This document shows positions 46,601 to 49,600 of a DNA stretch of 64,000 bases, piece by piece. The DNA lies in the NCBI RefSeq assembly GCF_024298765.1, contig NZ_CP101210.1; one strand, 5' to 3'. Each line of letters starts with the position of its first letter. Position 1 is the first letter of the stretch. Made by a program: the position numbers. Origin of the DNA: Escherichia coli. GTDB taxonomy: Bacteria > Pseudomonadota > Gammaproteobacteria > Enterobacterales > Enterobacteriaceae.

Positions 46601-49600
46601 TAAAACTCCGGCGAGGTGTCGAGGTTGTGGTTATAGTAATCCAGCCCGGCATTCGCCAGGCGCTGCGCTTGAGATTCACTCAACGTGCCCAGCGTCATAC
46701 ACGCCTCCAGACCCATCGCTTTTACCCCCTGCACCATTTGTTCCAGGTACGGCATATCGCGTTCGTGGGGATTCTTCCACGCCGCGCCCATACAGAAACG
46801 CGTCGATCCCGCCGCTTTCGCTTTGCGCGCCGACTCCAGCACCTGTTCAACTTCCATCAACCGCTCGGCTTCCAGCCCGGTTTTGTAGCGCGAGCTTTGC
46901 GGGCAATATTTGCAATCTTCCGGACAAGCTCCGGTCTTAATCGACAGCAAAGTGCTGACCTGCACCTGACGAGGATCGAAATGCTGACGATGCACCTGCT
47001 GCGCTTCAAACAGCAGATCCAGCAACGGTTTTTCAAATAATTCTGTGACTTGCGACAATGTCCAGCGTGGGCGGTGAGCCATGGGGCTTCTCCAAAACGT
47101 GTTTTTTGTTGTTAATTCGGTGTAGACTCGTAAACCTAAATCTTTTCAATTTGGTTTACAAGTCGATTATGACAACGGACGATCTTGCCTTTGACCAACG
47201 CCATATCTGGCACCCATACACATCCATGACCTCCCCGCTGCCGGTTTATCCGGTGGCAAGCGCCGAAGGTTGCGAGCTAATTTTGTCTGACGGCAGGCGC
47301 CTGGTTGACGGTATGTCGTCCTGGTGGGCGGCGATCCACGGTTACAATCACCCGCAGCTTAATGCGGCGATGAAGTCGCAAATTGATGCTATGTCGCATG
47401 TGATGTTTGGCGGTATCACCCATGCGCCCGCCATTGAGCTGTGCCGCAAATTGGTGGCAATGACGCCGCAACCGCTGGAGTGCGTTTTTCTCGCGGACTC
47501 CGGCTCCGTAGCGGTAGAAGTGGCGATGAAAATGGCGTTGCAGTACTGGCAGGCCAAAGGCGAAGCGCGCCAGCGTTTTCTAACCTTCCGCAATGGTTAT
47601 CATGGCGATACCTTTGGCGCGATGTCGGTGTGCGATCCGGACAACTCAATGCACAGCCTGTGGAAAGGCTATCTGCCAGAAAACCTGTTTGCTCCCGCCC
47701 CGCAAAGCCGCATGGATGGCGAATGGGATGAGCGCAATATGGTGGGCTTTGCCCGCCTGATGGCAGCGCATCGTCATGAAATCGCGGCGGTGATCATTGA
47801 ACCGATTGTCCAGGGCGCAGGCGGGATGCGCATGTACCATCCGGAATGGTTAAAACGAATCCGCAAAATGTGCGATCGCGAAGGTATCTTGCTGATTGCC
47901 GACGAGATCGCCACCGGATTTGGTCGTACCGGCAAACTGTTTGCCTGTGAACATGCAGAAATCGCGCCGGATATTTTGTGTCTCGGTAAAGCCTTAACCG
48001 GCGGCACAATGACCCTTTCCGCCACGCTCACCACGCGCGAGGTTGCGGAAACCATCAGTAACGGCGAAGCCGGCTGCTTTATGCATGGGCCAACTTTTAT
48101 GGGCAATCCGCTGGCCTGCGCAGCAGCAAACGCCAGCCTGGCGATTCTTGAATCTGGCGACTGGCAGCATCAGGTGGCGGCTATTGAAGCGCAGCTACGC
48201 GAGCAACTTGCCCCCGCCTGTGACGCCGAAATGGTTGCCGATGTGCGCGTACTGGGGGCAATCGGCGTGGTCGAAACCACTCGTCCGGTGAATATGGCAG
48301 CGCTGCAAAAATTCTTTGTCGAACAGGGGGTATGGATCCGGCCTTTTGGCAAACTGATTTACCTGATGCCGCCCTATATTATTCTCCCGCAACAGTTGCA
48401 GCGTCTGACCGCAGCGGTTAACCGTGCGGTGCAGGATGAAACATTTTTTTGCCAATAACGGGAAGTCAGCGTGAGGGTTTCTGGCTACACTTTCTGCAAA
48501 CAAGAAAGGAGGGTTCATGAAACTCATCAGTAACGATCTGCGCGATGGCGATAAGCTGCCGCATCGTCATGTCTTTAACGGCATGGGTTACGATGGCGAT
48601 AATATTTCACCGCATCTGGCGTGGGATGATGTTCCTGTGGGAACGAAAAGTTTTGTTGTCACCTGCTATGACCCGGATGCGCCAACCGGCTCCGGCTGGT
48701 GGCACTGGGTAGTTGTTAATTTACCCGCTGATACCCGCGTATTACCGCAAGGGTTTGGCTCTGGTCTGGTAGCAATGCCAGACGGCGTTTTGCAGACGCG
48801 TACCGACTTTGGTAAAACCGGGTACGATGGTGCAGCGCCGCCGAAAGGCGAAACCCATCGCTACATTTTTACCGTTCACGCGCTGGATGTAGAACGTATT
48901 GATGTCGATGAAGGTGCCAGCGGCGCGATGGTCGGGTTTAACGTTCATTTCCACTCTCTGGCAAGCGCCTCGATTACTGCGATGTTTAGTTAATCACTCT
49001 GCCAGATGGCGCAATGCCATCTGGTATCACTTAAAGGTATTAAAAACAACTTTTTGTCTTTTTACCTTCCCGTTTCGCTAAAGTTAGTATAAAAAAGTTG
49101 AATGTGAAACGGTAAAAACAATTAATATCAACGGCTTATAATTGATTCAGTCTAAAAAATAGACTGCATAATGCTACAAAACACAACATATCCAGTCACT
49201 ATGAATCAACCACTTAGATGGTATTAGTGACCTGTAACAGAGCATTAGCGCAAGGTGATTTTTTTGTCTTCTTGCGCTAATTTTTTGTCAACACACTGGG
49301 TTAGCTGAATTTACAACCACGCTCAGTATCTCGATAAGCGCAGAGAAATGATGCAGTGGTGGGCGGATTGGCTTGATGAAAAAGTGGAGTAATCCGGACC
49401 GTACTTCTTTATCCAGGCATAAAGGCTGTGGGTGGTGATATCGAGACGTGTTGCAACGCTGGCAACAGAATAACCGCGATCAATAACCTGTTTGACTGCT
49501 TCAGTTTTAAACTCTTCGGGATAACGCTTACCGCTCATGGGCACCTCTCTTTAAGCCATCTTAAATGACTCTGAGGTGTCTGTTAAACCCGTGGCGATTC

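What the first reader, a model, noticed from the sequence alone, without database searches (positions are those of the whole stretch)
49084..49289. Lambda-type attR junction with sib/tI-like hairpin confirms site-specific integration at attB
A 15-bp sequence matching the lambda core at 14 of 15 positions lies 90 bp after ybhB, followed on the phage side by arm-type Int site motifs and a perfect 10-bp-stem hairpin with T-run in the position of the lambda sib/tI retroregulator. The single mismatch is at the core edge on the phage side, consistent with a phage whose att differs slightly from lambda. This shows the prophage uses a lambda-type integrase at the canonical bio-proximal site.
Basis: partly seen in the sequence, partly recalled or inferred. 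Interest (0 to 1): 0.4.

Follow-up and report, generated by a model that had tools for sequence, protein, structure and literature searches.

The report
Lambda-type prophage right junction (attR)
This is the ordinary right-hand junction (attR) of a lambda-like prophage sitting in the classic lambda attachment site next to the E. coli biotin genes; about a third of complete E. coli genomes have the same kind of junction.

Summary
Window 49084-49098 (- strand) reads ACTTTTTTATACTAA, 14 of 15 to the lambda core. It is the only such site in the window and appeared in 0 of 100 shuffles. The 90 bp between ybhB and the core match the right half of K-12 attB at 89/90. The next 191 bp align without length change, apart from 2 nt in a hairpin loop, to the P arm plus sib/tI. 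Identity is 162/191 to lambda, 174/191 to phage 434 and 188/191 to phage PhiR70_1. P1, P2, H1, H2, X1 and the C core site are kept, and the differences fall mostly in the spacers. The hairpin folds like lambda's (-25.1 kcal/mol, z -5.0), including the outer helix that uses the U-run. The single core mismatch lies outside the 7-bp overlap, on the phage-derived side, and PhiR70_1 shares it. attL and int lie outside the window, and the source genome is not in the collection. In strain E7, among the closest genomes, ybhC-attL(BOP')-int-xis lies 47.5 kb away and Int is 352/356 identical to lambda Int. All 15 closest genomes carry that junction, 47-59 kb from attR in the five computed. Roughly 1,920-1,970 of 5,426 complete E. 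coli genomes have such junctions. This is textbook biology and of low interest.

The parts
48517..48993 (+). ybhB, the last host gene before the junction
   Evidence: ORF. Annotated as ybhB (kinase inhibitor) in the identical stretch of strain E7.
48994..49083 (.). Bacterial flank, the B' side of attB
   Evidence: Alignment A1 shows it identical to K-12 attB right of the core except 49080. The same allele occurs in the empty attB of strain EC11.
49080..49088 (+). B' core-type Int site, AAAGTTAGT (K-12: CAAGTTAGT)
   Evidence: Read from the sequence. Its identity as B' rests on established knowledge of lambda att sites.
49084..49098 (-). 15-bp common core ACTTTTTTATACTAA; the 7-bp overlap TTTATAC is at 49087-49093
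   Evidence: Unique in the window, 0 of 100 shuffles. Aligned to the lambda core 27724-27738.
49092..49100 (-). C core-type Int site, CAACTTTTT (lambda: CAGCTTTTT)
   Evidence: Exact match to the core-type consensus CAACTTNNT. PhiR70_1 has the same variant.
49126..49138 (+). H2 IHF site, TATCAACGGCTTA
   Evidence: Matches WATCAANNNNTTR and is in register with lambda H2.
49140..49189 (-). Xis (X1, X2) and Fis (F) region of the P arm
   Evidence: In the X1 segment (49172-49189) the ATGTTGTGTTTT part is identical to lambda; the segment is 15/18 to lambda and 18/18 to 434. The X2/F segment is 24/32 to lambda and 29/32 to 434. Site names come from lambda literature and were not tested.
49193..49202 (+). 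P2 arm-type Int site, CAGTCACTAT
   Evidence: Exact match to the arm-type consensus; 12/13 to lambda and 13/13 to 434 over the segment.
49204..49216 (+). H1 IHF site, AATCAACCACTTA
   Evidence: Consensus match; 18/19 to lambda.
49222..49235 (-). P1 arm-type Int site, ACAGGTCACTAATA
   Evidence: 14/14 to lambda 27587-27600, which lies within the record's 'int 1' binding feature at 27583-27602.
49237..49288 (+). sib/tI element. Main stem 49244-49255 / 49270-49281, T-run 49281-49286, outer helix 49237-49242 / 49283-49288.
   Evidence: The fold has the same shape as lambda and 434, at -25.1 kcal/mol and z -4.97. It is 52/54 to lambda. The homologous position in phage 434 is annotated as a terminator.
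49290..49290 (.). Mosaic boundary where homology to lambda ends just after the T-run, while 434 and PhiR70_1 continue
   Evidence: Beyond 49290 identity is 15/45 to lambda, 33/45 to 434 and 41/41 to PhiR70_1.

Best explanation
The stretch is attR (P-O-B', read here on the opposite strand) of a lambdoid prophage integrated at attB-lambda, the canonical E. coli lambda attachment site between ybhC and ybhB next to bio.

A lambda-type tyrosine integrase recombined a phage attP with attB. The phage attP had a P arm of the 434/PhiR70_1 type, the core ACTTTTTTATACTAA and a lambda-identical P' arm. Strand exchange took place inside the 7-bp overlap TTTATAC. As a result, core position 1 and everything beyond it at attR is phage DNA, and everything on the ybhB side is host DNA.

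The P arm at attR carries the sites needed to build the excisive complex with attL: P2, X1/X2/F and H2. It also carries P1 and H1, which are used for integration.

The hairpin plus U-run is the tI terminator / sib retroregulator. In the circular or infecting phage it lies downstream of int across attP. Transcripts from pI stop there and are stable. Antiterminated pL transcripts read through and form the longer outer helix, which is an RNase III substrate, so int mRNA is degraded from its 3' end. In the prophage, sib is separated from int by the whole prophage, so Int can be made from pL on induction.

Shown here: the sequence anatomy, the homology, and the partner junction in the nearest genomes. 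Inferred from established lambda biology: binding, cleavage, termination and RNase III processing.
For: - The core is unique in the window and appeared in 0 of 100 shuffles.
- Alignment to K-12 attB, lambda attP, 434 attP, the PhiR70_1 end and E7 attL splits the window sequence exactly at the core into a host half and a phage half.
- Segment identities show every binding site conserved and in register. The whole P arm plus sib is 162/191 to lambda, 174/191 to 434 and 188/191 to PhiR70_1.
- Consensus hits were found for P2, P1, H1, H2 and C.
- The hairpin fold is equivalent to lambda and 434. A terminator is annotated at the same place in 434, downstream of int and the attP core.
- Phage database hits include records annotated as attP or attR.
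- In E7 the other end is ybhC, tccgttgaagcctGCTTTTTTATACTAAgttggcatt... (BOP'), then int and xis. Its Int is 352/356 identical to lambda Int.
- All 15 nearest genomes carry the same attL-int-xis. It lies 47-59 kb from attR in the five genomes computed from the coordinates.
- An empty attB carrying the same B' allele exists in strain EC11. Together with the PhiR70_1-type attP, it reconstructs both junctions exactly.
- The retroregulation of int by sib is stated in PMC5300877.
Against: - attL and int of this very genome lie beyond the window end. No genome in the collection is identical to the window (best 99.6% over 15.5 kb), so pairing is shown only in close relatives.
- The simple terminator scan did not list the hairpin. 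Its rules do not allow the interior mismatch.
- Rfam has no matching family.
- No functional test of recombination, termination or RNase III cleavage is possible here.
- The b region next to attR carries IS remnants and an IS1. E7's tape-measure gene has an internal stop, so the prophage may not be fully viable even if it can excise.
Confidence: 0.94

Rival explanations
1. Orphan attR. The junction is genuine, but in this particular genome the prophage is 'grounded': attL and/or int at the far end have been deleted or disrupted, so the site is a fossil rather than a working excision substrate.
For: - The far end is outside the window, and the exact genome was not found.
- IS remnants and an IS1 lie within 2.7 kb of attR. 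E7 has a pseudogenised tape-measure gene.
- There are slightly fewer attR than attL junctions in the collection, 1,920 versus 1,972, so unpaired ends do exist.
Against: - All 15 nearest genomes have an intact attL-int-xis.
- The same b-region IS remnants are present in the deposited phage record PhiR70_1, whose listed host is E. coli C.
- The overlap and all P-arm sites are intact.
Confidence: 0.05
2. In the prophage state the hairpin's working role is simply as an intrinsic terminator. It would stop read-through from ybhB and bioA into the prophage b region, rather than regulate int.
For: ybhB is transcribed on the + strand toward the hairpin, and the T-run is on the + strand. In the prophage, sib is about 47 kb away from int, so it cannot act on int mRNA.
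Against: - This does not compete with the sib/tI identity, because it is the same element seen in a different state.
- The host already has its own hairpin at 49002-49024, just after ybhB.
- The outer helix, which is needed only for the RNase III substrate, is conserved in lambda, 434 and this phage. That points to selection for retroregulation.
Confidence: 0.15
3. The junction is a chance resemblance, or was made by a different recombinase such as the IntS-type integrase whose relic lies at 49309-49392.
For: A 27-aa C-terminal relic of an IntS/P4-type integrase lies 20 bp beyond the hairpin's T-run.
Against: - The core match appeared in 0 of 100 shuffles.
- There are 191 bp of collinear homology to lambda-type P arms carrying lambda Int arm sites.
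- The relic is only 27 codons, preceded by a stop codon.
- A lambda-type int sits at the other end in the nearest relatives.
Confidence: 0.005

Closest known systems
Bacteriophage lambda attR (POB') and attP P arm, NC_001416 27535-27738
   Same: It uses the same chromosomal site, between ybhC and ybhB, and the same 7-bp overlap. P1 is identical, and the P2 arm-type consensus, both IHF consensus sites and the X1 repeat are kept at the same spacing. The sib/tI hairpin is 52/54 identical. The partner attL and P' arm in the nearest genome are identical to lambda's, and Int is 352/356 identical.
   Different: Overall identity is 162/191. Core position 1 is A rather than G, so the C site reads CAACTTTTT. 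The X2/F and H2-to-C spacers are diverged. The hairpin loop is 2 nt longer. Sequence beyond the tI T-run is unrelated to lambda (15/45).
Phage 434 attP / tI region (OL657226, M60848)
   Same: Identity is 174/191. The P2, X1 and X2 variants are shared, and homology continues past tI into the integrase-relic sequence. The 434 record annotates the attP core and a terminator at the homologous places.
   Different: 434 has the lambda G at core position 1. The H2-to-C segment differs (28/39).
Escherichia phages PhiR70_1 (PV340577) and mEp332 (PV340541)
   Same: Identity is 98.6-99% over the P arm and sib. PhiR70_1 has the same A-variant core, the same IS remnants and the same AraC-family gene next to attR. 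Its record is laid out in prophage order, starting in the P' arm before int.
   Different: There are 3 substitutions in 191 bp. The PhiR70_1 record ends with the K-12-type B' bases (CTTG), not the CTTT allele of this host.

Membership tests
Lambda-type attR (P-O-B') at attB-lambda | 15-bp common core with a 7-bp overlap identical to that of attB and attL | tested here: met
   The core matches at 14/15 and the overlap TTTATAC is intact. E7 attL has the same overlap.
Lambda-type attR (P-O-B') at attB-lambda | One flank equals the host attB flank (B') and lies next to ybhB and bio | tested here: met
   The flank is 89/90 to K-12 and 90/90 to the empty attB of strain EC11.
Lambda-type attR (P-O-B') at attB-lambda | The other flank is a P arm with arm-type Int sites P1 and P2, IHF sites H1 and H2, and Xis/Fis sites at lambda spacing | tested here: met
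   P1 is 14/14. P2 matches the consensus exactly. H1 and H2 match WATCAANNNNTTR. The X1 repeat is identical. There is no indel between the core and P1. X2 and F were judged by alignment only.
Lambda-type attR (P-O-B') at attB-lambda | A partner attL (B-O-P') with lambda-type int and xis at the other prophage end | tested here: inconclusive
   The far end is outside the window and the exact genome is not in the collection. The feature is met in E7 and in all 15 nearest genomes.
Lambda-type attR (P-O-B') at attB-lambda | Int/Xis/IHF-dependent excisive recombination | not testable with these tools
   This needs induction followed by junction PCR, or in vitro recombination.
Lambda sib / tI retroregulator | A G+C-rich hairpin followed by a U-run on the strand transcribed from int across attP | tested here: met
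   The fold is on the + strand, which is the leftward strand in lambda terms. In 434 the order is int, then the attP core, then the terminator, all on that strand.
Lambda sib / tI retroregulator | An extended outer helix, formed only in read-through transcripts, that serves as the RNase III substrate | tested here: met
   A 6-bp outer helix, 49237-49242 / 49283-49288, pairs with the U-run. The same helix is predicted for lambda and 434. This is in silico evidence only.
Lambda sib / tI retroregulator | RNase III cleavage and 3'-to-5' decay that lower Int synthesis | not testable with these tools
   The function is known for lambda (Schindler & Echols 1981, cited in PMC5300877). It was not tested for this allele.

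The most novel reading that the evidence does not exclude
The two core-type site variants might alter Int core binding. One is the phage C site, CAACTTTTT, which is a better match to the consensus CAACTTNNT than lambda's CAGCTTTTT. The other is the host B' allele, AAAGTTAGT, which loses the conserved first C. Together they could measurably shift the balance between integration and excision, for example by stabilising lysogeny in this lineage. Separately, the IntS-type integrase relic abutting tI could mark an old exchange of integration modules in the 434/PhiR70_1 lineage.
Probability: 0.1. Interest if true: 0.15.

Novelty: already known. Interest (0 to 1): 0.07.

Why it matters
It is useful for annotation only. 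It fixes the right boundary of the prophage to the base: phage DNA begins within the core at 49087-49098. It also identifies the integration module as lambda-type and explains the hairpin. It adds no new biology, because attR, the P-arm sites and sib/tI are textbook features. About 35% of complete E. coli genomes carry such a junction at this site.

Tried and rejected
- The simple promoter/terminator scan did not report the sib hairpin. Its loop and stem rules exclude the interior mismatch, so full folding was used instead.
- The Rfam scan of 48800-49600 at E <= 1 gave no family. The lambda sib element is evidently not a curated family.
- The search for the exact source genome failed. The best complete E. 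coli genomes are 99.6% identical over 48500-64000, so attL and int could only be examined in close relatives.
- A literature search for PhiR70 found nothing. mEp332 appears only in a qPCR methods paper.
- Chance match was considered and rejected.
- Integration by the IntS-type enzyme whose relic lies at 49309-49392 was considered and rejected. The relic is only 27 codons behind a stop codon, and the arm sites are lambda Int sites.

Full report
**Observation**

The window around the finding reads: ybhB (48517-48993, +), then 90 bp, then TTAGTATAAAAAAGT at 49084-49098. On the - strand this is ACTTTTTTATACTAA, 14 of 15 to the lambda core GCTTTTTTATACTAA. It is the only site in the 64-kb window within one mismatch of the core, and none occurred in 100 dinucleotide-preserving shuffles. 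The mismatch is at 49098, which is core position 1 in lambda orientation. That is the edge facing the phage arm, outside the 7-bp overlap TTTATAC (49087-49093).

**Alignment**

I aligned the reverse complement of 48994-49330 with lambda attP (NC_001416), phage 434 attP, the end of the phage PhiR70_1 record, K-12 attB and the attL of strain E7. The window sequence splits exactly at the core.

- The ybhB side matches the right half of K-12 attB, with one difference at 49080 (CTTTAGCG versus CTTGAGCG in lambda orientation).
- The other side matches the phage P arm.

Segment by segment, identities to lambda are:

| Segment | Identity to lambda |
|---|---|
| P1 | 14/14 |
| H1 | 18/19 |
| P2 | 12/13, with the consensus 10-mer CAGTCACTAT intact |
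| X1 repeat ATGTTGTGTTTT | identical |
| X2/F | 24/32 |
| H2-to-C | 25/39, with the IHF consensus kept |
| C plus core | 16/17 |
| sib/tI | 52/54 |

There is no indel between the core and P1, so the spacing of the sites is lambda's. The whole 191 bp is 162/191 to lambda, 174/191 to 434 and 188/191 to PhiR70_1. Consensus scans independently found P2, P1, H1, H2 and the C core-type site. BLAST against phage records gives 78 records, several annotated as attP or attR at the match.

**Hairpin**

On the + strand, 49228-49296 folds to -25.1 kcal/mol (z = -4.97; 0 of 200 shuffles fold as well). It has a 12-pair main stem (49244-49255 / 49270-49281), a U-run, and a 6-pair outer helix (49237-49242 / 49283-49288) that pairs with the U-run. 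Lambda and 434 give the same shape. The only difference is a loop 2 nt longer.

The + strand of the window is the strand transcribed from int across attP. In the complete 434 genome the order on that strand is int, attP core, annotated terminator. This matches the known tI/sib arrangement. By established knowledge, terminated pI transcripts end in the U-run, while antiterminated pL transcripts form the longer RNase III substrate. The retroregulation of int by sib is summarised in PMC5300877. Rfam has no family for it. The crude terminator scan missed it because of the interior mismatch.

**The other prophage end**

The window stops 15 kb into the prophage. No complete E. coli genome in the collection is identical to it. 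The best are 99.6% over 48500-64000 and 100% over 47000-53000. Strain E7 is among the best matches, at 99.8% over 37 kb. Of its 71 differences, 63 are confined to 56321-57391.

In E7 the prophage runs from attR through tail, head, lysis, replication and immunity genes to xis and int, and ends next to ybhC. The junction there reads tccgttgaagcctGCTTTTTTATACTAAgttggcattataaaaaagcattgcttatcaatttgttgcaacgaacaggtcactatcagtcaaaataaaatcatt. This is a canonical BOP' attL with a perfect core and a lambda-identical P' arm. Its integrase is 352/356 identical to lambda Int.

All 15 closest genomes listed also appear with a 99.9-100% identical ybhC-attL-int-xis. The attL lies 47-59 kb from attR in the five genomes computed from the coordinates of those calls.

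Having G in the attL core and A in the attR core is what a crossover within the overlap predicts for an attP carrying A. PhiR70_1, whose record is laid out in prophage order, has that A. The B' allele at 49080 is a host polymorphism: strain EC11 has it in an unoccupied attB...cgctAAAGTTAGTATAAAAAAGCaggcttcaacgg.... An EC11-type attB crossed with a PhiR70_1-type attP reproduces both junctions exactly.

**How common it is**

Of 5,426 complete E. coli genomes, 1,972 have the ybhC-attL-int-xis junction. 1,920 have an attR with a lambda-type P arm covering at least 80% of the 307-bp query. The rest match only the first 104 bases, which is the empty-site pattern. This particular b-region configuration is present in 172 genomes.

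**Mechanism**

Shown here: the sequence anatomy, the homology, and the paired junctions in relatives. Inferred from lambda biology: Int, with IHF, Xis and Fis bound to P2, X1/X2/F and H2 at attR and to H', P'1 and P'2 at attL, exchanges strands at the edges of the 7-bp overlap to regenerate attP and attB. sib/tI acts only when it is rejoined downstream of int. Separating it from int in the prophage allows Int synthesis from pL on induction.

**Comparison and novelty**

This is a member of the lambda att/sib system in every feature testable here. It is closest to the PhiR70_1/mEp332 and 434 alleles of the P arm. Nothing departs from known biology.

The small variants are of minor interest at most: the C site CAACTTTTT, which fits the core-type consensus better than lambda's; the B' allele AAAGTTAGT; and the 2-nt longer loop. 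The residual uncertainty is whether this very genome retains attL and int, which I judge about 0.9 likely.

**Verdict**

The feature is already known, and interest is about 0.07.

Noticed in passing
window 49309-49392 (+): A 27-codon relic, IYNHAQYLDKRREMMQWWADWLDEKVE*, preceded by a stop codon. It matches the C-termini of IntS/P4-type tyrosine integrases: phage HK633 'prointegrase IntS' at 96% and an Erwinia phage integrase at 92%. It starts just beyond the tI T-run, where homology to lambda ends but homology to 434 and PhiR70_1 continues. This looks like a mosaic boundary at a terminator.
   Followed up: partly
window 49392-50054: Two IS3-family transposase remnants in opposite orientation. 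One is an orfA N-terminus (49392-49538, -) and the other an orfB C-terminus (49602-50054, +). Both are annotated as partial in E7, and the same region is also present in the phage record PhiR70_1.
   Followed up: partly
window 50096-51758: An AraC-family regulator gene (about 50096-50839, -) and an IS1A copy (about 51061-51758, -) lie in the prophage b region between attR and the tail-fibre genes. The AraC gene is a candidate moron. Its function was not examined.
   Followed up: no
window 56321-57391: 63 of the 71 differences from E7, among the closest complete genomes, cluster in this 1.07-kb patch, which spans the side tail fibre N-terminus, lom and the J C-terminus. Only 8 differences lie in the other 36 kb. 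This is a localised recombination patch in the host-range region.
   Followed up: partly
window 49080; L007 473-510: The host B' core-type site is AAAGTTAGT, not the K-12 CAAGTTAGT. The same allele occurs in the unoccupied attB of strain EC11, so it is a host polymorphism and not a product of integration. In the spread sample, almost all genomes that match only the host half differ from the window there by one or two bases, which fits this allele being uncommon.
   Followed up: yes
window 49148-49166: A perfect 7-bp inverted repeat, CAGTCTA-N5-TAGACTG, lies in the X2/F part of the P arm. It is 6 bp in phage 434 and absent in lambda. Its significance is unknown.
   Followed up: no
window 49002-49024: A 9-bp perfect hairpin, CCAGATGGC-gcaat-GCCATCTGG, lies just after the ybhB stop codon. 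It belongs to the host attB flank and is identical in K-12. It is not followed by a T-run.
   Followed up: no
E. coli genome collection: About 35% of complete E. coli genomes have attB-lambda occupied by a prophage with a lambda-type int and P arm: 1,972 with attL and 1,920 with attR, out of 5,426. Most attR alleles are only 90-95% identical to this one.
   Followed up: partly
L001 36151-38712 (strain E7; corresponds to window about 63150 onward): The tape-measure gene of the nearest relative's prophage is annotated as a pseudogene with an internal stop. The prophage may be defective for particle formation even though its att and int module looks intact.
   Followed up: no
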